From positions 54,962 to 118,961 of the forward strand of contig JAJCYT010000027.1 in NCBI GenBank assembly GCA_029262795.1: a stretch of 64,000 nucleotides of DNA. The letters are read 5' to 3'. A program made the position numbers and the translations under genes. This DNA comes from Candidatus Fraserbacteria bacterium (GTDB lineage Bacteria; Bipolaricaulota; Bipolaricaulia; RBG-16-55-9; JAJCYT01). Shown here piece by piece: positions 4,879 through 64,000 of the stretch (positions are counted from its first letter, which is position 1; each line of letters begins with the position of its first letter). Under the pieces are notes generated by a model, which had not been told where the DNA came from, made no database searches, and worked only from the letters and a program-made list of their open reading frames with translations.

Positions 4879-7467
4879 TTGAATCCTCTTCTGAATAAGG
4901 TTTATAGTAAAGATATTAAGGAGGGCGATATGAGGCGTTTTTTGTTGATCTCGCTTGTGGTTTCATTCGCATTTTTCGGGTTTTCTGAAACTTTGGCTCA
5001 AACTGACGATGTGGGTAATGAACCCACGGCATTTGAAGCCTCCCTGCTGCCCTCCGACAATGTAGAAGTTCGCGGTCAGATTGAAGTAATTGGTGATGTC
5101 GATTGTTTCATGTTTGAAGTTGTCTTTCCAGAAGACAGCAACCAGGTGAACTACACACTCGAAACCAGTGATCTGAGCGGGAGCTTGGACACAGTGTTGG
5201 TGTTGTTTGATCGTAATGGACGAACTGTATTGGCCATTGATGACAATAGTGGTCAGGATCGTGGCTCACGCATTGAGTTCGCGCCTTCCTTTGAAGGGCT
5301 TTACTTTGTGTGTGTGCGTAATGCGCGATCCACACAAGGCGCTGGCAGTTATACCTTGAGCGTGATCAACAATGGCAGTAGCGCACCTACAACGACGGTA
5401 AACACACCGCCTGCGCCCACAACACCACCAGCCACGCCACCTTCGAATAACGAGAACAACGAAGAGAACACGACAAACCAGGAAGAAGAAACCAACAACG
5501 AACCGGAGACGACATCTCAGCCTCCACAACAGGAGGAAACCAATACCCCTCCGGTTCCTGAAACCCCTGAGCCTCCAACAACAAACAATACGCCACCTGA
5601 AACAGAAGAACGTCCTACCGCGCCAAGTAGCTCAACCGAGGTGCTTCGCGAAGGTCGCATTGCCCTCCTTGGCGGCGACGATGATGACAGCATCCGCAAC
5701 GTGCAGAGTTATTTGATGGCAACAGGGTCGTTTCCATCAGTAGATGTGATCAATGTGTCGCGGGAAACGCCATCTGAATTTGAGCTGAATCAGTACGAAG
5801 CGGTTTTGGTGTGGGCCGACAGCGGCTTCCAGGATGCGGATGCAATGGGAGATCGCTTGGCATCTTACGTCGATCGTGGTGGTGGTGTGGTGGTGGCTGC
5901 CGTGAGTTTTGATATTCCTGATCCATTTGATCCAGACACTTTAGGTGGACGATTTTTTACTGGCAATTATTACGTGATTCAACCTGACACCGACAACGTG
6001 AGTGACGATCGTCGCGTGTTGGGTAATGTGCAAAATCCAAACCATCCTGTGATGTTAGGGGTTACAAAGATTGATGGTGGCCCTAGCAGCTTGCATTCCC
6101 CCACATCAAATTTGACCTCTGGCGGTCAGACGTTGGCTTCATGGGACAATGGCTCTGTATTGGTGGCTGCCAAAAGCATGGGGCAGGCCAATCGAGTTGA
6201 TATCAATTTGTTCCCTCCATCCAGCTTACTCGACCCTGATTTGTGGCCATTTACACAAGACAACGATGTGCCACGATTGATGGTTAATGCCTTGTTCTGG
6301 GTGGCGGGGCGAGATCAGCCTTTCACCGAAACACCTGAAGGACAGCCAGGTTTGTTGGAAGCCAGTGTGCCTTTATTGAGTTTTAATGCCCGACCGGGCG
6401 ACACGGCGACAAATCAAAACGTGACCTTGCGCAATGTGGGTGGTCAATCTTTAACTTGGTCCGCTTCTGTAGATGTCAATTGGATTAGCCTCAACCCATC
6501 TCAAGGAGAGCTTGGTTCCGGAGATTCACTTAACGTGTCTGTGTCTGCCAATCCGGGGAGTTTGGGATTGGGCACACACAATGGCACCATCACATTTATG
6601 ATGGTGGGTGGTGAAAGTGGTGTGGTTCGTGTACCTGTCACATTAACGTTGAATTCTGAAGCTGCACCACCGACCACGAATAACCCGCAGCCGCCATCAA
6701 CACCAAGTGGCAGTGGCAACGTATTACAGGTGCCGACACAATTTTCCAGCCTCAGCGGAGCTTTAGCGCAAGCGCAGGCAGGCGATGTGATTGAAATTGA
6801 TGCAGGGACATTGACGAATGTGGCCGTTACGATTTCTCAACCCATCACCATTCGAGGCTCAACTGGCTTAACGCGTACCGTGCTTCGCGGCAGTGGCGCT
6901 GCCCCCGTGATTACAGTCGGGGCCAATGTGGCAGGTGTCAACTTGCAAAACATCACCATCAACAGTGGTCGCATTGGCGTGCTTGCCACCGATGGCTCAC
7001 AGGTGGCTTTACAAAATGTGGTGGTGACGGACAATTCAGGTTGGGGTGTTCAAGTCCTGGGAGCCTCCATTTTCTCATCAACAGGAAGCACGATTGCCAG
7101 CAATGGATCAGGTGGTATCACGCTTGACATTGGAGATGCTACCAACAGCTCGCTTCAAGTATTGATGAACAGCAACACGATTCAGAACAATTCCGGCTGC
7201 GGTGTTCATGTGGCTTCGGATGAAACAGGGATTCAGATTTCTGGTAGCAACAATCGTGTGGCTGGTAACAATGTTGAGCTTTGTGACAATGCCAATCGCT
7301 TGCCCGCAAACTTTGTCAACGCCGATTCAGCTTCTTCAAACAATTCAGGCGCCAACAACTCTGGCCCTTCAGCCACCGAATTCGACGATGATGGCGATGG
7401 TGTGCCAGATGCTGATGATTTTTGCCCAATTACTCCGGGTAGAGTAGATAACAATGGCTGTCCATAG
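4879..7467 (+). CDS. large secreted multidomain protein: PPC-like domain, Pro/Thr-rich linker, ThuA/GATase1-like domain, Ig-like beta-sandwich, parallel beta-helix (PbH1/NosD-like) repeats, C-terminal TSP3-type Ca-binding repeats
   Basis: Signal peptide; DVDCFMFEV (PPC D-x-D-x-Y/F-x-F pattern); PTTPPATPP low-complexity linker; IALLGGDDDD…AVLVWADSG…GGGVVVA GATase1-like pattern; NVTLRNVGGQSLTWSAS…NVSVSANP Ig-like; G-x-G/N-x-G parallel beta-helix periodicity; DDDGDGVPDADDFCP at C-terminus. Confidence 0.7.
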   Translation: MNPLLNKVYSKDIKEGDMRRFLLISLVVSFAFFGFSETLAQTDDVGNEPTAFEASLLPSDNVEVRGQIEVIGDVDCFMFEVVFPEDSNQVNYTLETSDLSGSLDTVLVLFDRNGRTVLAIDDNSGQDRGSRIEFAPSFEGLYFVCVRNARSTQGAGSYTLSVINNGSSAPTTTVNTPPAPTTPPATPPSNNENNEENTTNQEEETNNEPETTSQPPQQEETNTPPVPETPEPPTTNNTPPETEERPTAPSSSTEVLREGRIALLGGDDDDSIRNVQSYLMATGSFPSVDVINVSRETPSEFELNQYEAVLVWADSGFQDADAMGDRLASYVDRGGGVVVAAVSFDIPDPFDPDTLGGRFFTGNYYVIQPDTDNVSDDRRVLGNVQNPNHPVMLGVTKIDGGPSSLHSPTSNLTSGGQTLASWDNGSVLVAAKSMGQANRVDINLFPPSSLLDPDLWPFTQDNDVPRLMVNALFWVAGRDQPFTETPEGQPGLLEASVPLLSFNARPGDTATNQNVTLRNVGGQSLTWSASVDVNWISLNPSQGELGSGDSLNVSVSANPGSLGLGTHNGTITFMMVGGESGVVRVPVTLTLNSEAAPPTTNNPQPPSTPSGSGNVLQVPTQFSSLSGALAQAQAGDVIEIDAGTLTNVAVTISQPITIRGSTGLTRTVLRGSGAAPVITVGANVAGVNLQNITINSGRIGVLATDGSQVALQNVVVTDNSGWGVQVLGASIFSSTGSTIASNGSGGITLDIGDATNSSLQVLMNSNTIQNNSGCGVHVASDETGIQISGSNNRVAGNNVELCDNANRLPANFVNADSASSNNSGANNSGPSATEFDDDGDGVPDADDFCPITPGRVDNNGCP

Positions 7468-18265: not shown

Positions 18266-19311
18266 GCTGTCGGCAGTGCCAATGCGGGGGACGCAGACAT
18301 ATCCAACGAGCTTTGTTCACCCATTTTTTCATATCGATAACGGGCACAGGCAGCAATCATGGCTGCATTGTCCATGCATAACTTTAAGTCAGGGTAGTAA
18401 ACTGTTTTAGATTCCTTTTTTGCGTATAGATCCAGCTGTTGACGCAATCCAGAGTTGGCGGCCACGCCACCCACCACGACCAATTGATCCACCTTCTTTT
18501 GATTCGCTGATGCAAATAGTTTGGTGATCAATACATCCACCACCGCTGCCTGAAATGAAGCGGCTAAATCTTCCAGATGGGCATCAGGGTGATCGTCCAG
18601 ATAGTAGCGAATGGCAGTTTTTAGCCCTGAAAAACTAAAATCCAGACCTTTTTTGAGCATGGGTCTGGGAAAGTCAATGGCTTGAGAATTTCCCTGTTGA
18701 GCCAGTTTGTCAATCTGTGGTCCAGCTGGATAACCTAACCCCATTAATTTTCCCGCTTTGTCAAACGCTTCACCGGCGGCGTCATCACGAGTGTTGCCTA
18801 AAATTTCGTAATCGCCCCAAGCTTTGACATGAATTAAATTGGTGTGTCCTCCCGAAGCCAGCAATGCCAAAAAGGGAGGTGGCACGTTAGGAAAAGTGAG
18901 ATGATGTGCAAATAAGTGACCTTCCAAGTGATTGACAGCAATAAAGGGAATACCTAATCCGAGTGACAACCCTTGCGCAGCACTGAGGCCGACCAGCAGT
19001 GGGCCAATTAAACCAGGACCGTTGGTCGCGCCGATGAGGTTGATTTGCTCAAGCGAAACACCAGCCTCATCCAAAGCTGATTGAATGACAGGAGAAATTT
19101 TGACCACATGGTTGCGTGATGCCACTTCAGGTACCACACCGCCATATTGTGCGTGCAAATCGACTTGCGAGTAGACCACATTGGACAGCAATTCATGATC
19201 GTTTTTTAGCACTGCTGCAGCCGTTTCGTCACAAGAGCTTTCGATGCCCAGCGTAAAAAAATCTGTCATAAGTTCTCCATTGTCTAAGTGTGCTAGAATA
19301 TACACATCCAA
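18262..19311 (-). CDS. tsaD: tRNA N6-adenosine threonylcarbamoyltransferase TsaD (Kae1/YgjD)
   Basis: LGIESSCDETAAAV N-terminal motif, HxxGH metal site, 349 aa. Confidence 0.92.
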   Translation of the reverse strand: MDVYILAHLDNGELMTDFFTLGIESSCDETAAAVLKNDHELLSNVVYSQVDLHAQYGGVVPEVASRNHVVKISPVIQSALDEAGVSLEQINLIGATNGPGLIGPLLVGLSAAQGLSLGLGIPFIAVNHLEGHLFAHHLTFPNVPPPFLALLASGGHTNLIHVKAWGDYEILGNTRDDAAGEAFDKAGKLMGLGYPAGPQIDKLAQQGNSQAIDFPRPMLKKGLDFSFSGLKTAIRYYLDDHPDAHLEDLAASFQAAVVDVLITKLFASANQKKVDQLVVVGGVAANSGLRQQLDLYAKKESKTVYYPDLKLCMDNAAMIAACARYRYEKMGEQSSLDMSASPALALPTA

Positions 19312-19313
19312 TC

Positions 19314-19982
19314 ATGAATACGCACGTAATGATAGCTCAAAAAACTCGTTGGCTGGTACAAGTGTTGGGCGTTGTTGTGATTTTTGCACTGTGCCTGAGC
19401 CTGCACCCTACGCCCTCCATTTTTGGAAAAGTGCTGATTGAAACCGCAACCAACCAATTGCAAAACGCACTGCAACAAATTGAACTAGGGGAAGATTCAA
19501 TTTCTCTGGTTCAAATGAAGCATCAAGCCCAACAGGTACTTGATCAGTTAGGTGGAAATTTGATTGCTGAAAACGCAGACATCCCTCTTAATGATGGCAG
19601 TGTGCGTCATTATCTGATTGATTTTTGGGAGCAGCAATCCATTGAACTTGTTCAGTTAGTTAATCGATACGGGCCTCATGGTGAAGTTTCGGTATCACAT
19701 CAACAACTGATGATGGTGGTCAACACCGTGCTAATCCGCCTGGGACAGGCAGAACATTTTGCTCAAATGACGTTGTTGACCAAGGACGCTGAAGCAGCCA
19801 AGCGATACTTGCAAAACCTTCAAACAACATTGCAAAGTGCTATCGGTGGTCAAAAAAACCTAAATGAGGCTGGCGCTGCTTTCGTTGAAGCAACGTTTAA
19901 CCGAATTGCCCATCTCAGTCAATCTCAATGGCCTTCTATGTTTCAGCCAGCCCAACGATCACATCAAGTGGCTTCTGAATAA
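19314..19982 (+). CDS. hypothetical membrane-anchored helical protein (start trimmed to second Met to avoid overlap with tsaD start)
   Basis: single TM WLVQVLGVVVIFALCL then Gln/Leu-rich helical region; no family assignable. Confidence 0.35.
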   Translation: MNTHVMIAQKTRWLVQVLGVVVIFALCLSLHPTPSIFGKVLIETATNQLQNALQQIELGEDSISLVQMKHQAQQVLDQLGGNLIAENADIPLNDGSVRHYLIDFWEQQSIELVQLVNRYGPHGEVSVSHQQLMMVVNTVLIRLGQAEHFAQMTLLTKDAEAAKRYLQNLQTTLQSAIGGQKNLNEAGAAFVEATFNRIAHLSQSQWPSMFQPAQRSHQVASE

Positions 19983-22680: not shown

Positions 22681-23133
22681 TCAAATTTTGTCTATAGGAA
22701 GTTGTCCAGGTGGGTGGAACAAAATCTTTCTGGACCGTCCCTCAATGTCGAACACAATCCAGCGACTGTTTTTTGGCAATGCTTGTGGTACTTTGTCTCC
22801 CCATTCCACCGCGACGATGCCACCTGCATTCAGGTATTCATCAAAGCCAATCTCTTCAAGTTCTGATGCGTCATGAAGCCGATAAGCGTCTACATGAAAC
22901 AAAGGCACTTGACCTTCATATTCTTGAACGATCAGATAGGTGGGAGAGTTAACCGGTGATTTAACGCCAAGTCCTGTTGCAAGTCCTTGGATGAAGGTGG
23001 TTTTTCCTGCGCCTAAATCACCCACCAGCACCAGGCAATCGCCTGGTGCCAGTTGGTGAGCATATTGTTTACCTAATTCGATGGTGGCTTCTGCCGAATC
23101 AGTGACCACGATTTGATTAAACGTATCCTTCAT
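22681..23133 (-). CDS. tsaE: tRNA threonylcarbamoyladenosine biosynthesis ATPase TsaE (YjeE)
   Basis: Walker A GDLGAGKTTF, ~150 aa, typical TsaE. Confidence 0.85.
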   Translation of the reverse strand: MKDTFNQIVVTDSAEATIELGKQYAHQLAPGDCLVLVGDLGAGKTTFIQGLATGLGVKSPVNSPTYLIVQEYEGQVPLFHVDAYRLHDASELEEIGFDEYLNAGGIVAVEWGDKVPQALPKNSRWIVFDIEGRSRKILFHPPGQLPIDKI

Positions 23134-23144
23134 TGAAATTTTCT

Positions 23145-25988
23145 CTAAAGGAACGGAATGCCCAAGCGCAGATACGGTTCGAAAATGGTGAAATCTGCCG
23201 GGCCATTGCTGCCAAGCAACGAAATGGCTACACCGGCAGTCACATTGAAAGACAACAAGCCGCCAAACATCTGACCACTGGCAGTGGCTTCAAACCCACC
23301 TTCAGCCAGTGTCATGTCGATATCGAACTGGTCAAAATCATCCCAGGTCTGTGCCGCTGCTACATACACATTTCCTCGGATCTCGCGGACCAAAGCCAAA
23401 CCGGCCACCGAATAAGCCATGTCGCGCTGCATGGGGAAGCTGACGCTTAAACGGGCCGAGCCTTTGTATCGCCCTGGAAAAGTGAGTTTTCGTTTCGCGC
23501 CTTCATCTGTGAAATCATAAAAACTGTTGAGTTCAGCAAGGTTAAAATAAAGGAACTCAGGCAATTCACCCATGCTGTAGCCAAAATCCGCCTGCAGATC
23601 TAACGTCACATTTGGGAATAGCAACGATTGAGTCACCGCTGCTGCATTGAGTCTTGTGAATGAAAATGGATCGACAAGAGCATTTGCCTGAAACACATGG
23701 CGTGCATTGAGCAACTGACTAAACGTATAGGTGATACCGCCATAGTTGACGGGGGTCTCGTCAAAATTTAAGCGCCTGGAAATCGACAGACGCAAGCGAT
23801 GACTAGGTTCCCAATATTGGCCCTGAAGGCCCAGGTCCGGGTGTTCGTATAATGTTGCGTTCCAGCCAAATTCGGCCAGCACATCGTCGCCAAACACCAG
23901 TGCGCCATCAATGGTATTGCCTCGACCTTGATTCATCACAAAGGCAATCAAGCCGTCGGCCAGCAGCCAGCGGTAATCGAGCACGTAGCCGCCTTCAAGG
24001 ATTTGTGAGATGGGGTCAAAGCGGATCAAATACGAATCCAGGGGCACATCCACTCCGCCATCGGGAATGATGCGCAAGCGGGTGGGAAAATAATTGTCGA
24101 TACGTGCCACATCCGGCGTCCAGCTTTCGGGGTCTACCTGTACTTCCAACAACGGTGCAGGGAGAATAAAAGTCAGTGTTTCCGTTTCGGATTCAGGTGT
24201 CCAGGTTTGGCGCGTGAGCGTGCCATCTTCACTGAGCAGCACCACTTCCACAGGCAGTCGGCCTTCGCCTTCATGCTTCAAGCTGACGGTGGTGGTATAA
24301 GTGCCATCATCATTTGGATCGGTTTTGACACGTTCAATGCCATAGTCGATAGAGGCATCACCATACACCCAATCCTCAAAGAAGGCGTCCATATCTAGGC
24401 CGGAAATATTTTCAGCTTGCGTTTTTAGTAAGTCGGTATCCAGAATATTGTGGTTGAATTTTTCATAAGTTTCCAGCAACAATTGATCCATGCTCTCGCT
24501 GCTGATCACGCCTTCCAAAGCACGAAGGACCAAATAGCCTTTGTTATAAATGCGTGTTTGATTGTTGTTGGCAAATTCAACCGCCTGCTGTGGTTTAACC
24601 AATGCTTCATCAAATCGATCCCGATGAACGACCAAATAAGGCAACTCACTAAAATGTTGTCGCAGATTGAGATAACCAAATTGCGAATCAATCAGGTTTT
24701 CTAAAAAACCCTTTCTTTTAACCTGAATCACATTTGGGCGATTGTTACCGTATTTTTCCTCAAAATAGCTGATCGAAAGATATTCAGCAAAAGCTTCGGA
24801 TAAGAAATTTTCGGCGTTCAAGTCGGTGCTGACGCCAATACCCCACCACATATGGGCGATTTCGTGCGCCAGTAAATATTCTAAAAAACGATCGGCCATG
24901 CCGGCCACGGTGAGGTCTTTCTCAGCAAACCCACTGTTGCCCAAAATGATGAACCCATCGGCCGCCATGCCAAAATAACCACTGGCCCAGGAGGTGACGA
25001 TAGACAGTTGCTTATACCCATAGGCACCACGATTTTCGTTGTAACTGTCTAAAATTTCCACAGCATAAGTGGCAATCTGGCGGGCAGCCGCTTCTTCACT
25101 GGGCAAATAATAAACATGAACAGGAATGTCCTGGTTGGGCAGCGTGTAGCGTTTGAAGTCCGGCGAAATGCTTAGCGGAATCGAACGAACGGGTACATCA
25201 CTTTTCAGCAGCAGCGTTTTCGTGCCAGCGAGTTCATCGACCGAAGTTTCCTCCTGCGTGTCCAGACCAGTGACTACTGTGTAATGATCCGGCACAGTGA
25301 AACTCATTTCATACAGTGCGGCAGGATAGCGCCAGCGCACATAATCTTGACCCTCGCTATGATATTTTCCATCCACCAAATCAGTGGCAGTGACGGCCAC
25401 CGGGTTCCAGGCAAAACGCCAGGTATAAATGTTTTGATGAAAGCTCTGGTCGGTGTTGAGACTGCTGGGAAACCTGGTTTCAAATTCCACCACAACGGTT
25501 ATTGCTTGACCTGGCGCCAAAGTGTTGGGCAAATCTACCTTGAGTAAATTCTGCTCAAGTGAATAACTTTGAAAGGTTTCTGGCCCCGCTTCATAAGACC
25601 AAGAAAGCGCATTGCCAGCTTCATCGATGACGTCATATACATCCAGCCAAGAAGCATCAAACCCCTTGTCGTAACTGGAGTCAACAATCACCGGACTCAA
25701 ATTTGGATTTGGCTCACGATTTAAATTCGGTGCCAAAATAAAATACAAAGCATCCAGATCAGTGTCTCCGTTGTTGACATACACCACCTCTTGGGTGGCT
25801 TTGATGGATTGAGAATAAATGTCTAACTCGGCCTCAAGGGTGTATTGGGTCTGTTCCCCCTCTTGCGCCAACACAGTTGGCACATAAAGCACGGTCAGAA
25901 TAAATACAAAAAGCCCAAAAAATCGCACAGATGTTCCTCCTTCTCTGTTGTCCTTTACCAATGTAACGAAAAATGCCAAGTCACTCAA
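23145..25988 (-). CDS. secreted M1-family (gluzincin) zinc metallopeptidase fused to ~300-aa C-terminal outer-membrane-barrel-like domain
   Basis: signal peptide; HEIAHMWWG…(18 aa)…EAFAEY = HEXXH-X18-E of aminopeptidase N family; C-terminal third has alternating hydrophobic/aromatic beta-strand pattern ending …YLRLGIPFL. Confidence 0.65.
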   Translation of the reverse strand: MSDLAFFVTLVKDNREGGTSVRFFGLFVFILTVLYVPTVLAQEGEQTQYTLEAELDIYSQSIKATQEVVYVNNGDTDLDALYFILAPNLNREPNPNLSPVIVDSSYDKGFDASWLDVYDVIDEAGNALSWSYEAGPETFQSYSLEQNLLKVDLPNTLAPGQAITVVVEFETRFPSSLNTDQSFHQNIYTWRFAWNPVAVTATDLVDGKYHSEGQDYVRWRYPAALYEMSFTVPDHYTVVTGLDTQEETSVDELAGTKTLLLKSDVPVRSIPLSISPDFKRYTLPNQDIPVHVYYLPSEEAAARQIATYAVEILDSYNENRGAYGYKQLSIVTSWASGYFGMAADGFIILGNSGFAEKDLTVAGMADRFLEYLLAHEIAHMWWGIGVSTDLNAENFLSEAFAEYLSISYFEEKYGNNRPNVIQVKRKGFLENLIDSQFGYLNLRQHFSELPYLVVHRDRFDEALVKPQQAVEFANNNQTRIYNKGYLVLRALEGVISSESMDQLLLETYEKFNHNILDTDLLKTQAENISGLDMDAFFEDWVYGDASIDYGIERVKTDPNDDGTYTTTVSLKHEGEGRLPVEVVLLSEDGTLTRQTWTPESETETLTFILPAPLLEVQVDPESWTPDVARIDNYFPTRLRIIPDGGVDVPLDSYLIRFDPISQILEGGYVLDYRWLLADGLIAFVMNQGRGNTIDGALVFGDDVLAEFGWNATLYEHPDLGLQGQYWEPSHRLRLSISRRLNFDETPVNYGGITYTFSQLLNARHVFQANALVDPFSFTRLNAAAVTQSLLFPNVTLDLQADFGYSMGELPEFLYFNLAELNSFYDFTDEGAKRKLTFPGRYKGSARLSVSFPMQRDMAYSVAGLALVREIRGNVYVAAAQTWDDFDQFDIDMTLAEGGFEATASGQMFGGLLSFNVTAGVAISLLGSNGPADFTIFEPYLRLGIPFL

Positions 25989-26021: not shown

Positions 26022-26250
26022 CTTCTAACCCCCAACCCCTTTACATAAGGGGGCACGATTGGGCTGCGGGGATGGATTCTTTGATATTCGATAGTTTATT
26101 CTTTTCGGTTTCTTTTATAGGAGTATTAAGGCCTTTTTGGTTTTCAGTTAGAATATGCAGAAAAGTTGAGAACAGACATTTTCAGGCATATCGTAGCCCC
26201 CTTTTGATTTTAGAAGGGATCCCTTTCTAGATAAAGGGGGGGGAAAGCTT
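26022..26250. mobile_element. MITE-like repeat, copy B (left TIR intact, right end degenerate)
   Basis: left end AACCCCCAACCCCTTTACATAAGGGGGCACGATTGGG and internal GCGGGGATGGATTCTTTGAT are homologous to copy A at 57689; right end GTAGCCCCCTTTT…AAGGGGGGGG partially matches. Confidence 0.5.
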
Positions 26251-26261
26251 TCCCCCATTAG

Positions 26262-44625: not shown

Positions 44626-46830
44626 ATGAGTAAAGTAAAAAAGAAACAGAGAAAAGGCATCAATCGAGGGGCGCCAAAAGGGATAGCTGTTGAATGGCTT
44701 CAACTGATTCAACATGCGCTCACGGCTGTTTTTATCCTTACTTTGCCTGTGTTGATCTACACCAACAATTCTGAATATGGCTATACCAAAATCATTTATG
44801 CCTATTTGATGATCACTGCTTTATACGGTTTATGGGGTGTGCAGGCGTGGCTGGAAAATCGACTTACCTTTTGGCGACCCGCTTTGTTTTGGCCGGCGAT
44901 GGGAGTGGTTTTAGCTGGGGTGTTATCCATCATCAATGCCAGCAGCTTTGGTATTGTGTTACAAAGCCTGGCTGTGTTGATTTATTTCATTCTGTTTTAT
45001 TTTTACATTGCCAACACCACAAATCGTAAAACGTTCTACCTTTATTTGAGTGCAGGCGCACTGAGTGCATTGTTCGTCGCGGTGTATGGCATTTTGCAAT
45101 ACCATGCATTGCTGCCGGGCTTGACCAGCAAAGGCGATGAACACGATATGCTGTCCAGTTTTGGCAATAAAAACTTTTTGGCAGAATTCCTCAATTTGTG
45201 GATCTTGCCGATTTTGGTGTTGTTGCTACGCTTTAAACTGATTTGGGCCAAAGTGTTAGTTTTGGTTATCACGATGGCTAGCTTTATTGCCTTTATCAAT
45301 GCTGATTCCACAGGTGCGTTGCTTGGGTTTTTAGCAGGTGGTTTTTTCTTTGGTGTAGGGTTTATCATTTTTCAAAAACCAATTCGTCATGTGCTTAAGC
45401 GTCAACGCACTTGGGTGTGGGTAGGCGTTTGGGTGATGGTCATTTTGGCCTCTCTGTTCCTGGCCGATCGACCAGGACTGGTGCGCGAATTCCTAACAAG
45501 GGAAACAAACTCCACCGAAGCCTTGGCCTTTGAGCATAGCGTTAAAGTGATCAATACCTTCCAAGGCCCGTTCGATCAGATCAGGGACGTTATTGATCGT
45601 TACTGGGAAGAAGGTTCTGGAAACACCCGTGCCTGGGACTGGTGGGTGGCTTATGAAATGTGGCGAGCCAATCCCGTATTTGGGGTTGGGTTAGGCCATT
45701 ACAAAGTTCAGTTTATCAATTACAAGATCGATTTTTTGGCCACGGAACAAGGCCAGCAATACGACTTTTACATTGCACGCGCGGCCCAGGCGCACAACGA
45801 CTATTTTCAGTCGGCTGCCGAGCTGGGGTCGGTTGGTGTGGCTGCTATTTTATTTGTGATGGCAATGCTGATCTGGACCACTATTCACCAATTGAGGCAA
45901 GTGAAGGGGACGCAAAAATGGGTGATGCTGGCATTGTATGCTGGTGTGGTGGCGTTCTTCGTTGATGCCATGGTGAACTTTCCCGGTCGTTTAGCGGCGT
46001 CTTCATTCAGTATGTTGTTGTTGCTGGGGATGCTTCATTCCAATTATTTGTTTCCAAAACTCAAGGCATTTCAATTGAAGCAAACGGGCGTCAAAATTGC
46101 GGTGTCTGTGTTTTTGGTCTGCGCGTTGACTGTAACTGTATTTGCTTTGCGTGACTGGCAGGCCAATGTGCACTTGGATGCAGGCATTCGTCATTCGGAT
46201 CAGGGGCGTTATCAATTGGCGCTAAGCGAATATGAGAAAAGCTTGGCGCTGGATTTTCAACCTGCTGAAGTTCTTTTCCGCTTAGGGGCAACCCATCAGG
46301 CGCTGGGCAACGTGGATGACGCTGCAACATATTTTGAACGATCTATGGACAGTTACTTGGTTGATGAAGTATTCCTGCCTCTGGCCGTTTATAAGCTGAA
46401 TAACCAACAATACGATGAAGCACGGGCATTGTTGGACCGTATGGTAAGTTCCAAGCCAAGAGACAACCTGCTTCAGGAAGCTGAGTTGTTTCGTGCGGTG
46501 ATTGAAGTTCGTGACGACAATCTGCCCACAGGCATTTCTCTGCTGGAAACCATGACTATAAAATATCCGAATTTTGAGCGTGCCTATTACACGCTTGGAG
46601 ATGCGCTTATGGCCAATCGAAATTGTCCAGCGGCATTGGTCCAATACGAAAAAGCATTGGAAATTTCAGTGACACAGCGAGACGGTTTCCAAAGGCGAAT
46701 GGACAATCTTCAGGGGCAAACTGTCTTGGCACAAACATTCTCTCGCATTCGTGCTTCGCTGGAACGCTATACCAAACTCAGTGAAGATATTCAGGAAACT
46801 GTGGATCGGGTGCGTGGTCAGTGTGGTTGA
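44626..46830 (+). CDS. O-antigen ligase/polymerase-like (Wzy_C) polytopic membrane protein fused to C-terminal TPR repeats
   Basis: ~11 predicted TM helices with long periplasmic loop (Wzy_C-like) in first 480 aa; C-terminal 230 aa shows TPR-type A/Y/L periodicity. Confidence 0.65.
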   Translation: MSKVKKKQRKGINRGAPKGIAVEWLQLIQHALTAVFILTLPVLIYTNNSEYGYTKIIYAYLMITALYGLWGVQAWLENRLTFWRPALFWPAMGVVLAGVLSIINASSFGIVLQSLAVLIYFILFYFYIANTTNRKTFYLYLSAGALSALFVAVYGILQYHALLPGLTSKGDEHDMLSSFGNKNFLAEFLNLWILPILVLLLRFKLIWAKVLVLVITMASFIAFINADSTGALLGFLAGGFFFGVGFIIFQKPIRHVLKRQRTWVWVGVWVMVILASLFLADRPGLVREFLTRETNSTEALAFEHSVKVINTFQGPFDQIRDVIDRYWEEGSGNTRAWDWWVAYEMWRANPVFGVGLGHYKVQFINYKIDFLATEQGQQYDFYIARAAQAHNDYFQSAAELGSVGVAAILFVMAMLIWTTIHQLRQVKGTQKWVMLALYAGVVAFFVDAMVNFPGRLAASSFSMLLLLGMLHSNYLFPKLKAFQLKQTGVKIAVSVFLVCALTVTVFALRDWQANVHLDAGIRHSDQGRYQLALSEYEKSLALDFQPAEVLFRLGATHQALGNVDDAATYFERSMDSYLVDEVFLPLAVYKLNNQQYDEARALLDRMVSSKPRDNLLQEAELFRAVIEVRDDNLPTGISLLETMTIKYPNFERAYYTLGDALMANRNCPAALVQYEKALEISVTQRDGFQRRMDNLQGQTVLAQTFSRIRASLERYTKLSEDIQETVDRVRGQCG

Positions 46831-61779: not shown

Positions 61780-64000
61780 TTACTTCTTGCGGATGCGTTC
61801 GGGCACGTTTTCGGAGGTGTCCGTGGTATTGGTGGCGATCACGTTTTCGCGACCGGCGACCACAGAGTTGTCGTCTGCGTGGATACCGAAGCCCTGGTTC
61901 CCCGTCACCTGCGTGTCGCGCAAGCTGACCAAGGAATCTTCCAAAGCCACACCGTCTGTGCTGTTGTCAGCAATCACCATCTGAATGGCAGAAGCTGCGG
62001 AACTGTTCAACACTTCCAAGCCGCGACCGGTGTTGTTAGATAACGAACCGTTGCGTAAGGAAGCGGTAGAACTGTCCAAGCTCACGCCGCCCTGGTTGCC
62101 CGTAACCGTGGTGCCGATGAACAACATGGCAGAACGTTGCTGAGCGTGGATGCCCAAGCCACCATTGTTTTCAATCAAGCCACCGCGCAACGAAGCCACG
62201 GCACTGGTGAGGCTCATGCCGCCCTGGGTGTTGTTGCCAAACGTACTTTCCACAAACTGCACCGCTGTTCGATCACTGGCCATCAACGCCCAGCCCTGGT
62301 TTGCCGTAATTGCACTTTGTGTGATGCTGGCTGGTGAGTTGACCAAGCGGATGCCATCGCTTGGATGGTTGGTGATCGTGGTGTTGTCCAACGTGACTGT
62401 TGCATCTTTGGCGTCGATGCCGTAGCCGCCGTTGCCATCCATGATGCTGTTGTTGCGGAGTTCAACGGAGGAACTTTGTGCCAAGATGCCGTCAGAAGCG
62501 TTGTTCATTAACTGACTGTTGTTGATCGTGATTTCAGATTCGCTCAAGTCCACTGCGCGGCCCTGGTTGTTGTTCACAAAGCTGTCGCGCAAGTCCATGG
62601 ACGTTTCTCGCAAGAAGAAACCGTCGGTTGGATGACCCGTCAATGTGACGTTGGCAAAAGCCACTGTGGACAAGCTGGCGTTCAAACCGTGACCACCATT
62701 GTTGGTGATTTCGGAATCACGCAAGTCGGCTTTGGAATCGCTCAACAAGAGCGCGTCCTGGCCAGAACCGCTGATGAGGGCATTCGTGCCCAACAACGTA
62801 CCGTTGCTGGAGAACACGCCACGACCGCGGTTGTCCGTGATTTGGCTGCCTTTCAAGTCCACCGAGCTGGCGTCCAAGGTGATGCCGTCGCCTGGGTGGT
62901 TCTTGACAAAGCTGTTTTGCAAGGTCACACGAGATTTGTTGGCTTCAGCAATACCCACGCCACCGTTGCTGTCGAAGGTGGTGGTGCGGATCGTTGCGGA
63001 AGAGGCCGTCATTGTCATGCCGTGGTTGCCGTTGCTGGCAATCATCGCGCCTTCAAAGGTTACTTTTGCGTCGTTGAGCTGCAAGCCCACGCCGCTGTTG
63101 TTGATGACTTCACTGTTGACAAATTTAGCCGTGCTTTCCAACAACACAATGCCTTCCTGTGGATGGCCTTTGATGACCGTCTGGTTGGAAGTGCTGGTGT
63201 TGGAATCAAATGAGTTGATGCCAAAACCGCTGTTGGTGTCGATGGTGGTGCTTTCCAAGCTGGCGTTTGATTCGCTGAGGTTGATGCCGTTACCGCGGTT
63301 GCGGGCGATCATCGTGTCTTTGGTGTCGATGGTGGAGCGAGACAATGCGTTTACACCGTCGCCCTGGTTATCGACCACTTCAGCCGTAATCATTTCTGCC
63401 ACGGAATCGTTGAGCAACACGCCTTCCTGTGGATGACCACTCACGAGCGAACCGTTCAACGTCACTTTGGTGTTGCTGGCGTTGATGCCGCGTGCGCCGT
63501 TGCTGGTGACTTCGCTGTTTACCAATTCACTGGATGCATCTACCAAAATCATGCCGTCGCGACTGTTATTGGTAACCGTGCTGCCAGTGAGGAAGAATTC
63601 AGCGCTGTCCACACCGTTCAAGCCTGCACCGGAGTTGCCACTCACTTCACTGTCGGTGAGGTCGCCTTTGGCGTTGGTCAACGTCATGCCGTCCACACCG
63701 TGATTGATGAAGCGACTGCTGAAGGTGATGATGGTGGAGTCGGTGGCTTTTACACCACTGCCCTGATTCTGCTGTACCACACTGTCAGCAAATTCAGCAG
63801 AGCCGTCCAACATCGTCAAACCATCCACTGGATGGCCGGAGATTTCACTGTTGACCAAAACCTTGACAGCAGCGTTGGTGGCTTCGATGCCGCTTTGACC
63901 GTTGTTCAAGATTTTGGATGTCTGCAATTCCGTGGAAGAATTTTCCAAGAAAATGCCAGAACGTGGATGCTGCTCAACCGTGCTGTCGATCAACAAGGCG
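61780..64000 (-). CDS. giant right-handed parallel beta-helix (PbH1) repeat protein, N-terminus beyond window (>738 aa in window)
   Basis: uninterrupted ~22-23-aa repeats of type …T.N.G.GI.A..S.V.L.NS.I.GHP.DGI.L… across the whole ORF; frame open at window edge. Confidence 0.7.
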   Translation of the reverse strand, partial: ALLIDSTVEQHPRSGIFLENSSTELQTSKILNNGQSGIEATNAAVKVLVNSEISGHPVDGLTMLDGSAEFADSVVQQNQGSGVKATDSTIITFSSRFINHGVDGMTLTNAKGDLTDSEVSGNSGAGLNGVDSAEFFLTGSTVTNNSRDGMILVDASSELVNSEVTSNGARGINASNTKVTLNGSLVSGHPQEGVLLNDSVAEMITAEVVDNQGDGVNALSRSTIDTKDTMIARNRGNGINLSESNASLESTTIDTNSGFGINSFDSNTSTSNQTVIKGHPQEGIVLLESTAKFVNSEVINNSGVGLQLNDAKVTFEGAMIASNGNHGMTMTASSATIRTTTFDSNGGVGIAEANKSRVTLQNSFVKNHPGDGITLDASSVDLKGSQITDNRGRGVFSSNGTLLGTNALISGSGQDALLLSDSKADLRDSEITNNGGHGLNASLSTVAFANVTLTGHPTDGFFLRETSMDLRDSFVNNNQGRAVDLSESEITINNSQLMNNASDGILAQSSSVELRNNSIMDGNGGYGIDAKDATVTLDNTTITNHPSDGIRLVNSPASITQSAITANQGWALMASDRTAVQFVESTFGNNTQGGMSLTSAVASLRGGLIENNGGLGIHAQQRSAMLFIGTTVTGNQGGVSLDSSTASLRNGSLSNNTGRGLEVLNSSAASAIQMVIADNSTDGVALEDSLVSLRDTQVTGNQGFGIHADDNSVVAGRENVIATNTTDTSENVPERIRKK

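What the first reader, a model, noticed from the sequence alone, without database searches (positions are those of the whole stretch)
23145..25988. M1-family zinc aminopeptidase fused to a C-terminal outer-membrane-barrel-like domain (autotransporter-like architecture)
Residues around 370-400 carry HEIAHMWWG…E, which is HEXXH-X18-E with the M1-specific WW. The last ~300 aa show amphipathic beta-strand periodicity with aromatic girdle residues and a C-terminal …GIPFL. That is the signature of an OMP barrel or a type V translocator. An M1 peptidase passenger on a barrel is unusual and would place an aminopeptidase on the cell surface.
Basis: inference. Interest (0 to 1): 0.55.

Follow-up and report, generated by a model that had tools for sequence, protein, structure and literature searches.

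The report
M1 zinc peptidase fused to Omp85 barrel
A secreted zinc peptidase of the M1 family is fused to a 16-stranded outer-membrane barrel of the BamA/Omp85 type; the fusion is conserved across the little-known phylum Bipolaricaulota, no paper I found describes it, and the enzyme most likely sits on the inner face of the outer membrane, not on the cell surface.

Summary
It has a Sec signal peptide, an M1 peptidase module, and a C-terminal all-beta region of 296 aa.

The barrel is not a classical autotransporter barrel. There is no POTRA domain. The Omp85 loop-6 Arg and strand-13 Asp are both lost. The aminopeptidase GXMEN motif reads FGMAA, so exopeptidase activity is doubtful.

Omp85 topology, the model and the PlpD precedent favour a periplasm-facing enzyme. 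The family is almost confined to Bipolaricaulota and Fraserbacteria, often with two paralogues per genome. I rate it a new variant of a known kind.

The parts
23145..25928 (-). The whole gene (927 codons plus stop): signal peptide, M1 peptidase module, beta-sandwich, linker, Omp85-type barrel
   Evidence: ORF. Start refined. A 927-aa identical database protein, P0001, was found. The full-length AF2 model has pLDDT 93.6 and pTM 0.91.
25935..25943 (-). Shine-Dalgarno-like GAAGGAGGA, 6 nt upstream of the GTG start at 25928-25926
   Evidence: Read directly from the sequence.
25866..25928 (-). Sec-type signal peptide (residues 1-21, MRFFGLFVFILTVLYVPTVLA, then QE); no lipobox Cys
   Evidence: Read directly from the sequence. 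79 of 81 homologues have a hydrophobic N-terminal segment and none has a lipobox.
25104..25847 (-). M1 N-terminal beta domain (residues 28-275)
24369..25094 (-). Thermolysin-like catalytic domain (residues 279-520)
   Evidence: Pfam PF01433 covers residues 312-540 in 947-aa numbering, at 49.9 bits. AF2 predicts a helical domain.
24960..24974 (-). Degenerate exopeptidase motif FGMAA at the position of GXMEN (residues 319-323)
   Evidence: Pairwise HMMER alignment to human aminopeptidase A places GAMEN opposite FGMAA. Family conservation is G76, M50, A55, A69 and D76 of 81.
24795..24866 (-). Zinc-binding and catalytic motif HEIAH-X18-E (H355, E356, H359, E378)
   Evidence: All four residues are invariant in 81 of 81 homologues. 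The translation was checked.
24546..24548 (-). Catalytic Tyr (Y461) in the Y-N-K-G-Y motif
   Evidence: Invariant in 81 of 81. It aligns to the YSKG motif of aminopeptidase A.
24135..24350 (-). Beta-sandwich domain (residues 527-598), equivalent to M1 domain III; not a POTRA domain
24036..24134 (-). Conserved linker (residues 599-631) with invariant D599, P600, D606, R609, N612 and near-invariant P629, L630, D631
   Evidence: Conservation counts. pLDDT is above 90 in the full-length model but low when the barrel is modelled alone, so the linker packs against the peptidase module.
23148..24035 (-). 16-stranded Omp85-type beta-barrel (residues 632-927)
23469..23567 (-). Long loop between strands 11 and 12 (residues 788-820), at the position of Omp85 loop 6. 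L800-N-S-F803 aligns to the [LMV]RG[YF] motif of relatives.
   Evidence: Secondary structure. Alignment with Pfam-Omp85-positive relatives. Motif scan.
23343..23366 (-). Strand-13 motif YVAAAQTW (family consensus F-x-x-A-G-x-T-W). It aligns to the Omp85 F-x-D-x-G motif, but the Asp is lost.
23148..23174 (-). C-terminal strand with a beta-signal-like end, YLRLGIPFL
   Evidence: The family's last residue is F in 42 of 81 and L in 21 of 81.

Best explanation
The gene encodes an exported, outer-membrane-anchored zinc metallopeptidase. Reading from the N terminus it has a Sec signal peptide, a three-domain M1 peptidase module (N-terminal beta domain, catalytic domain, beta-sandwich), a conserved 33-residue linker, and a 16-stranded barrel of the Omp85 superfamily. 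The barrel occupies the place of the helical C-terminal domain of ordinary M1 enzymes, and the peptidase occupies the place of the POTRA domains of ordinary Omp85 proteins.

**Shown:** the architecture, the intact catalytic residues, the Omp85-type fold and the remote sequence link, the absence of POTRA, the loss of the GXMEN Glu and Asn, and the phylum-wide conservation.

**Inferred:**
- After Sec export the barrel is inserted into the toga-like outer membrane, presumably by the organism's own BamA. As in all Omp85 proteins, its N terminus faces the periplasm. The peptidase is therefore held rigidly under the periplasmic rim of the barrel.
- The barrel serves mainly as a membrane anchor and scaffold, as now proposed for PlpD.
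- The enzyme cleaves peptides or proteins in the periplasm next to the outer membrane. The likely role is peptide processing for uptake in a peptide-fermenting lineage.
- Because the N-terminus-binding Glu of GXMEN is missing, it probably does not work as a classical aminopeptidase.
For: **M1 module**
- Pfam PF01433 scores 49.9 bits against a gathering score of 27.7.
- The family profile matches M1 structures in the PDB, E 8e-20.
- H355, E356, H359, E378 and Y461 are invariant in 81 of 81 homologues.

**Export**
- RBS plus GTG start and a signal peptide.
- 79 of 81 homologues have an N-terminal hydrophobic segment and none has a lipobox.

**Barrel**
- AF2 gives pLDDT 93.6 and pTM 0.91 for the full length, and 86.3 for the barrel alone.
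- There are 16 strands, with a 33-residue loop between strands 11 and 12.
- The top 50 Foldseek hits are all BamA, TamA or Sam50, E from 5e-6.
- The barrel-only profile finds 112 representatives. I scanned 39 of the distant ones: 20 pass Pfam Omp85 (best 1.3e-15) and 27 match Peptidase_M1. P0190 and P0194 pass both gathering scores.
- These relatives carry [LMV]RG[YF] and F-x-D-x-G at the aligned positions.

**Periplasmic side**
- Published Omp85 topology.
- PlpD's enzyme domain is periplasmic (PMC11116518).
- Invariant residues sit in the linker and in what would be periplasmic turns: P697, G700, W706, P832, R835.

**Host envelope:** Bipolaricaulota have a toga-like outer membrane without LPS.

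**Conservation:** 190 loci in species-representative genomes, almost all Bipolaricaulota, Acetothermia or Fraserbacteria.
Against: - No experiment bears on localisation, topology or activity. Everything structural rests on AlphaFold2 models whose coordinates I could not inspect.
- Pfam Omp85 does not match this protein or any of 25 close relatives, even at E 10. The hallmark loop-6 RG(Y/F) and the strand-13 Asp are absent. The barrel is therefore a very divergent member.
- Gene neighbourhood gives no functional support. The conserved neighbours are housekeeping genes: CNNM/CorC, pheT, tsaE, accBC, ffh.
- A peptide ABC transporter with M20 and S58 peptidases lies downstream in only one examined locus.
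- The loss of GXMEN leaves substrate specificity open.
Confidence: 0.6

Rival explanations
1. Surface display, the first reader's view and the older 'type Vd' idea. The Omp85-type barrel translocates the N-terminal M1 module across the outer membrane, so the peptidase sits on the cell surface and digests external peptides.
For: - The order of passenger, linker and barrel resembles type V systems.
- An extracellular peptidase would suit a peptide-scavenging anaerobe.
- One relative lies next to a peptide ABC transporter and peptidases.
Against: - The passenger is a roughly 575-residue, three-domain globular enzyme, not a beta-helix that can fold stepwise outside the cell.
- There is no POTRA domain and no helical plug or linker predicted inside the barrel.
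- The loop-6 position is occupied by a 33-residue loop, as in closed Omp85 barrels.
- PlpD, the model for this mechanism, has been shown to keep its enzyme domain in the periplasm.
- In the full-length model, pre-barrel residues superpose on the POTRA side of BamA and TamA (one search compared).
Confidence: 0.15
2. Outer-membrane-protein quality control or assembly factor. The protein is a BamA/TamA-like paralogue in which a protease replaces POTRA. The barrel engages unfolded or stalled beta-barrel substrates at its seam, and the docked M1 module degrades them. This would be a covalent analogue of the BepA-BAM partnership.
For: - The barrel is closest in fold to BamA, TamA and Sam50.
- The family is a vertically inherited core gene set in a housekeeping neighbourhood across the phylum, as expected of an envelope-maintenance function.
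- Loss of the exopeptidase motif fits an endoprotease acting on unfolded chains.
- Heinz and Lithgow proposed periplasmic quality control for other enzyme-Omp85 fusions (PMC4104836).
- A distant M1+Omp85 relative directly follows a TPR gene and an M48 peptidase gene.
Against: - The loop-6 Arg and the strand-13 Asp, which are conserved in assembly-competent Omp85 proteins, are both lost in this subfamily.
- There are no POTRA domains to receive substrates.
- No Bam, Tam or chaperone genes lie nearby.
- The M48 neighbour carries the Ste24-type membrane domain and appears in a single locus.
Confidence: 0.15
3. Coupled channel and peptidase. The barrel is an open pore for peptides crossing the toga, and the peptidase docked at its periplasmic mouth trims them as they enter.
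For: - The high pTM (0.91) implies a fixed barrel-enzyme geometry.
- Invariant residues lie in the linker and in the periplasmic turns.
- Loss of the loop-6/strand-13 lock could free the lumen.
Against: - A 33-residue loop still sits at the loop-6 position.
- Known Omp85 barrels are closed to the outside except in TpsB transporters.
Confidence: 0.08

Closest known systems
PlpD / FplA (patatin-like Omp85 proteins, formerly 'type Vd secretion')
   Same: An N-terminal hydrolytic enzyme is fused to a C-terminal 16-stranded Omp85-family barrel in one polypeptide. The enzyme is now shown to stay in the periplasm and the barrel is used as a scaffold (PMC11116518).
   Different: PlpD carries a patatin phospholipase and keeps one POTRA domain, and its barrel is recognised by Pfam Omp85. 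Here the enzyme is an M1 zinc peptidase, there is no POTRA, and the barrel is too divergent for Pfam. Whether this protein dimerises as PlpD does is unknown.
Non-POTRA Omp85 subfamilies of Heinz and Lithgow 2014 ('WD40-Omp85', 'Metallo', 'noNterm')
   Same: These are Omp85 barrels with non-POTRA N-terminal modules of unknown function. One barrel relative found here, P0216, has Peptidase_MA_2 + PD40 + Omp85, which appears to correspond to the WD40/peptidase class. That paper raises the same open question of periplasmic or surface topology.
   Different: None of the ten subfamilies they list carries an M1 peptidase (PF01433). The word 'peptidase' and the accession PF01433 do not occur in the paper's main text. 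Their 'Metallo' class carries PF00149.
BamA / TamA / Sam50 (canonical Omp85 insertases)
   Different: This protein has no POTRA domains. The loop-6 RG(Y/F) reads NSF and the strand-13 Asp is lost. Sequence identity is 8-14%. No insertase role is implied.
M1 metallopeptidases (ERAP1, tricorn-interacting factor F3, PepN, LTA4H, Deinococcus radiodurans M1dr)
   Different: The GXMEN exopeptidase motif is replaced by FGMAA. The helical C-terminal domain is replaced by a membrane barrel. The protein has a signal peptide and is predicted to be membrane-anchored.
BepA with the BAM complex (functional analogue only)
   Same: A periplasmic zinc metalloprotease works at an Omp85 barrel (PMC8423444, listed).
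   Different: BepA is an M48 protease with a TPR domain and is a separate polypeptide that docks non-covalently. There is no homology to the M1 module.

Membership tests
Peptidase family M1 (Pfam PF01433) | Profile match above the curated threshold | tested here: met
   49.9 bits against a gathering score of 27.7, E 3.9e-13. The family profile hits M1 structures in the PDB at E 8e-20.
Peptidase family M1 (Pfam PF01433) | HEXXH-X18-E zinc site and catalytic Tyr | tested here: met
   H355, E356, H359, E378 and Y461 are invariant in 81 of 81 homologues.
Peptidase family M1 (Pfam PF01433) | GXMEN exopeptidase motif, whose Glu binds the substrate's free N terminus | tested here: not met
   It aligns to F319-G-M-A-A323, so the Glu and Asn are both Ala. 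This is conserved in the family.
Peptidase family M1 (Pfam PF01433) | M1 three-dimensional fold (N-terminal beta domain, thermolysin-like domain, beta-sandwich) | tested here: met
Peptidase family M1 (Pfam PF01433) | Aminopeptidase activity | not testable with these tools
   This needs an enzyme assay. Loss of GXMEN argues against classical activity.
Omp85 superfamily (Pfam PF01103) | 16-stranded transmembrane beta-barrel | tested here: met
Omp85 superfamily (Pfam PF01103) | Direct profile match to PF01103 | tested here: not met
   No hit for this protein or for 25 family barrels at E up to 10. The link is transitive only: the barrel profile finds proteins that pass PF01103, best 1.3e-15, 20 of 39.
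Omp85 superfamily (Pfam PF01103) | Loop 6 between strands 11 and 12 carrying (V/I)RG(Y/F) | tested here: not met
   A 33-residue loop is present at the right place, but the motif reads L-N-S-F (family L-x-S-F). Distant relatives keep [LMV]RG[YF].
Omp85 superfamily (Pfam PF01103) | Strand-13 (F/G)xDxG motif | tested here: inconclusive
   The aromatic residue, the Gly/Ala and the following T-W are conserved (F-x-x-A-G-x-T-W), but the Asp is not. Relatives have F-x-D-A-G.
Omp85 superfamily (Pfam PF01103) | [quoted passage not shown] | tested here: not met
   There is no POTRA Pfam hit. The domain before the barrel is an all-beta sandwich. Recognised Omp85 subfamilies without POTRA exist.
Omp85 superfamily (Pfam PF01103) | Outer-membrane localisation with a C-terminal beta-signal | tested here: inconclusive
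   The C terminus ends in an aromatic or hydrophobic residue: F in 42 of 81 and L in 21 of 81, with the window protein ending ...PFL. Localisation itself is not testable here.
Classical autotransporter (type Va) | 12-stranded barrel with the passenger linker running through the pore | tested here: not met
Patatin-like Omp85 (PlpD, 'type Vd') | Patatin domain plus POTRA plus Omp85 barrel | tested here: not met
   Only the barrel type is shared. The enzyme is M1 and POTRA is absent.

The most novel reading that the evidence does not exclude
Bipolaricaulota and Fraserbacteria carry, as a phylum-wide core envelope component (usually as two paralogues), an Omp85 barrel that has exchanged its POTRA domains for a rigidly docked M1 zinc protease and has lost the loop-6/strand-13 lock. 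Barrel and protease would work as one machine. They would either capture and degrade unfolded or stalled outer-membrane proteins at the barrel seam, or pass peptides through the toga directly into the active site. That would be a new functional class of Omp85 protein, neither insertase nor translocase.
Probability: 0.2. Interest if true: 0.8.

Novelty: new variant of a known kind. Interest (0 to 1): 0.58.

Why it matters
Omp85 proteins are the universal machines that build outer membranes in bacteria, mitochondria and chloroplasts. Recent work on PlpD showed that the same barrel has been reused as a scaffold for periplasmic enzymes.

An M1 peptidase-Omp85 fusion adds a second, unrelated enzyme class to that theme. 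Here it is a conserved core gene of a deep-branching, barely cultured phylum with an LPS-free, toga-like outer membrane. It gives a concrete and testable handle on two questions: what non-POTRA Omp85 proteins do, and how protein or peptide turnover is organised in the enlarged periplasm of toga-bearing bacteria.

There are two further consequences. Current annotation ('M1 family aminopeptidase' or 'hypothetical protein') misses the membrane barrel. The enzyme has also lost the motif that makes M1 enzymes aminopeptidases.

Tried and rejected
- **Sequence searches on the barrel alone.** Pfam gave only insignificant single hits among 25 members scanned at E up to 10: DUF3078, DUF481 and OMP_b-brl. 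The PDB sequence profile search gave nothing.
- **Word-indexed homologue search with the barrel alignment.** It returned one fragment, P0121, so that search was largely wasted.
- **AlphaFold-database fold search.** The afdb50 library was not available. I therefore could not survey the architecture in UniProt.
- **Looking up the exact database twin P0001 for its contig.** Nothing was on record. Cluster look-ups gave few names.
- **Gene neighbourhood over 80 related loci.** Only housekeeping synteny turned up: CNNM/CorC, pheT, tsaE, accBC, ffh, trmD, panC. I rejected it as functional evidence.
- **ERAP-like helical domain IV.** Rejected, because the region is all beta.
- **Classical autotransporter barrel.** Rejected.
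- **Generic porin or TonB-dependent receptor barrel.** Rejected, because every Omp85 hit outranks them with a clear Z gap.
- **POTRA-like reading of residues 527-598.** Rejected, because the domain has six strands and no helix.
- **Profile of distant relatives (A3) against the PDB.** M1 hits dominated and it added nothing about the barrel.
- **Model coordinates.** Lumen occupancy, the facing of the active site and the exact membrane orientation could not be measured.
Full report
**1. The observation**

The minus-strand ORF 23145..25988 (947 aa) exists. It contains HEIAHMWWGIGVSTDLNAENFLSE, which is HEXXH followed 18 residues later by Glu, at window 24795-24866. Pfam Peptidase_M1 matches at 49.9 bits against a gathering score of 27.7.

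The maximal ORF starts at a TTG. However, a GTG at 25928 is preceded by GAAGGAGGA at the right distance, and the identical database protein P0001 is 927 aa. I therefore take 23145-25928 as the gene and number residues from that start.

The product begins MRFFGLFVFILTVLYVPTVLA|QE, a Sec-type signal peptide with no lipobox. 79 of 81 homologues have such a hydrophobic N terminus.

**2. The peptidase module**

- A profile of 81 homologues matches solved M1 aminopeptidases over roughly positions 120-590, best E 8e-20.
- H355, E356, H359, E378 and Y461 are invariant in all 81 sequences. The catalytic machinery is therefore intact.
- The second M1 hallmark, GXMEN, is not intact. In a pairwise alignment with human aminopeptidase A, GAMEN lies opposite F319-G-M-A-A323, and G-M-A-A-D is conserved across the family. 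From established knowledge of M1 enzymes, the Glu of GXMEN anchors the free amino terminus of the substrate. Its loss makes a classical aminopeptidase activity doubtful.
- Residues 527-598 form a six-stranded beta-sandwich like M1 domain III.

**3. The C-terminal region**

Neither Pfam nor PDB sequence searches recognise residues 600-927. The family alignment shows alternating hydrophobicity.

Both AF2 models predict 16 long strands, with a 33-residue loop between strands 11 and 12. These are the full-length model and the model of residues 600-927 alone (pLDDT 86.3).

- **Foldseek.** It independently gives only BamA, TamA and Sam50 in its top 50, E from 5e-6.

**4. Sequence link to Omp85**

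A profile of the barrel alone, searched against 1.84 billion representatives, finds only 112 proteins. Most are 900-1000 aa with the match at the C terminus.

I scanned 39 of the more distant ones. 27 match Peptidase_M1 and 20 pass Pfam Omp85 (best 1.3e-15). P0190 and P0194 pass both thresholds. P0216 is Peptidase_MA_2 + PD40 + Omp85. Some are named 'BamA/TamA family outer membrane protein' in Nitrospirota, and one comes from Marinamargulisbacteria.

These relatives carry the Omp85 loop-6 motif [LMV]RG[YF] about 110 residues from the C terminus, and F-x-D-A-G on the next-but-one strand. In the window's subfamily the aligned positions read L-N-S-F and Y-V-A-A-A (family consensus L-x-S-F and F-x-x-A-G-x-T-W). 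From my knowledge of BamA structures, not checked here, the loop-6 Arg and the strand-13 Asp pair with each other. Both are lost together in this subfamily.

The barrel is thus a divergent Omp85 barrel: member-like in fold and in transitive homology, but failing the direct Pfam and motif tests.

**5. Host and distribution**

Named homologues are Candidatus Bipolaricaulota, Acetothermia and Fraserbacteria. A scan of species-representative genomes found 190 loci. The 80 kept are almost all from these groups; many are labelled 'uncultured Thermotogae', with a few stray labels.

Genomes often carry two paralogues:
- P0002 and P0075 lie on one 3.2-Mb contig.
- L010 and L057 lie on one contig.

The literature describes this phylum as diderm, with a toga-like outer membrane, no LPS genes, an OmpM-like tether and a recognisable 'bacterial surface antigen' gene. 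An outer-membrane barrel is therefore plausible, and a separate BamA presumably inserts it.

**6. Surroundings**

The gene lies downstream of a CNNM/CorC gene, whose end carries a terminator-like hairpin at 26239-26256. It is followed 12 bp later by tsaE, then trxB and an acyl-CoA ligase.

Across 80 related loci the recurrent neighbours are CNNM (30 loci), pheT (38), tsaE, accBC, ffh, trmD and panC. This is housekeeping synteny, and it indicates a vertically inherited core gene rather than a functional operon.

Three hints of a proteolytic or nutritional context appear in single loci only:
- A peptide ABC transporter with M20 and S58 peptidases lies next to P0038.
- An M14 carboxypeptidase and a tricorn/S9 protease lie near the paralogue P0075.
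- TPR and M48 genes lie directly before P0194.

**7. Mechanism**

The shown facts are the architecture, the intact catalytic residues, the Omp85-type barrel and the absence of POTRA.

The inferred topology is periplasmic, for four reasons:
- In every solved Omp85 protein the N terminus of strand 1 and the preceding domains are periplasmic. This is established knowledge; see also the abstract read.
- PlpD is the only studied enzyme-Omp85 fusion. It keeps its enzyme in the periplasm, and its authors argue that a folded globular domain cannot pass such a barrel without an energy source.
- The linker and the turns that would be periplasmic carry invariant residues (D606, R609, N612, P697, G700, W706, P832, R835). 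The pTM of 0.91 implies a fixed interface.

My best reading is an outer-membrane-anchored, periplasm-facing zinc peptidase that uses an Omp85 barrel as its anchor. It probably acts on peptides or unfolded proteins rather than trimming N termini. The rivals are surface display, outer-membrane-protein quality control, and a coupled pore-peptidase. They cannot be excluded without coordinates or experiments.

**8. Comparison and novelty**

Heinz and Lithgow (PMC4104836) defined ten Omp85/TpsB subfamilies. These include non-POTRA fusions (WD40, 'Metallo' with PF00149, patatin-like, noNterm), and the paper left their topology open. An M1 fusion is not among them.

Full-text searches for Omp85 together with M1, aminopeptidase N or metallopeptidase found no description of it. 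The library searched is limited to open-access papers and preprints.

Databases already hold hundreds of these proteins, annotated as 'M1 family aminopeptidase', 'hypothetical protein' or, for distant relatives, 'BamA/TamA family'. I rate it a new variant of a known kind: an Omp85 barrel used as a scaffold for a periplasmic enzyme.

**9. Limits**

- All structural statements rest on AF2 models summarised by the tools. I could not open the coordinates.
- The afdb50 library was unavailable.
- Activity, localisation and oligomeric state are untested.

Noticed in passing
window 44626-46830 (+): A 734-aa protein combines an O-antigen-ligase-like Wzy_C domain with C-terminal TPR repeats. This is odd in a phylum reported to lack LPS genes (PMC6092417). 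It may act on another surface glycan.
   Followed up: no
window 4879-7467 (+) and 61780-63996 (-): Two large right-handed beta-helix proteins: BACON_2 + Beta_helix (862 aa), and NosD/Beta_helix with six matched stretches (738 aa). They are probably secreted or envelope-associated. The second runs to within a few bases of the window end.
   Followed up: no
window 19290-19982 (+): A 230-aa ORF with no Pfam match lies between tsaD and the acyl-CoA ligase gene. A 216-aa gene without Pfam hits sits at the same place in the related locus L001, so it is likely a real conserved gene of unknown function.
   Followed up: partly
window 22681-23145 (-), compared with loci L005-L084: In 38 of 80 related loci pheT lies immediately downstream of the M1-Omp85 gene, with tsaE after it. 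In the window and in L001, tsaE follows directly (12 bp gap), so pheT has moved in this lineage.
   Followed up: partly
L002 7001-9880 (paralogue P0075, same 3.2-Mb contig as P0002): A second M1-barrel paralogue (959 aa, 35% identical) sits near an M14 carboxypeptidase and a tricorn/PD40/S9 protease gene. Two paralogues per genome recur, for example L010 and L057 on one contig.
   Followed up: partly
L004 5475-9847 (protein P0194, unnamed metagenome contig): A distant relative that passes both Pfam Peptidase_M1 and Omp85 follows a small TPR gene and a Peptidase_M48 (with M48_N) gene, separated from the latter by 4 nt. This may be a proteolysis operon.
   Followed up: no
Proteins P0129 (324 aa) and P0144 (353 aa): These barrel-only proteins match the whole barrel profile. 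They may be truncated gene calls or genuine 'noNterm' relatives of this barrel. I did not check them.
   Followed up: no
window 26239-26256 (-): A GC-rich hairpin (GGGGGAAAGCTTTCCCCC) lies just after the stop of the CNNM/CorC gene. About 300 nt of non-coding sequence follow before the M1-Omp85 start. The fusion gene therefore probably has its own promoter and may be co-transcribed with tsaE.
   Followed up: partly
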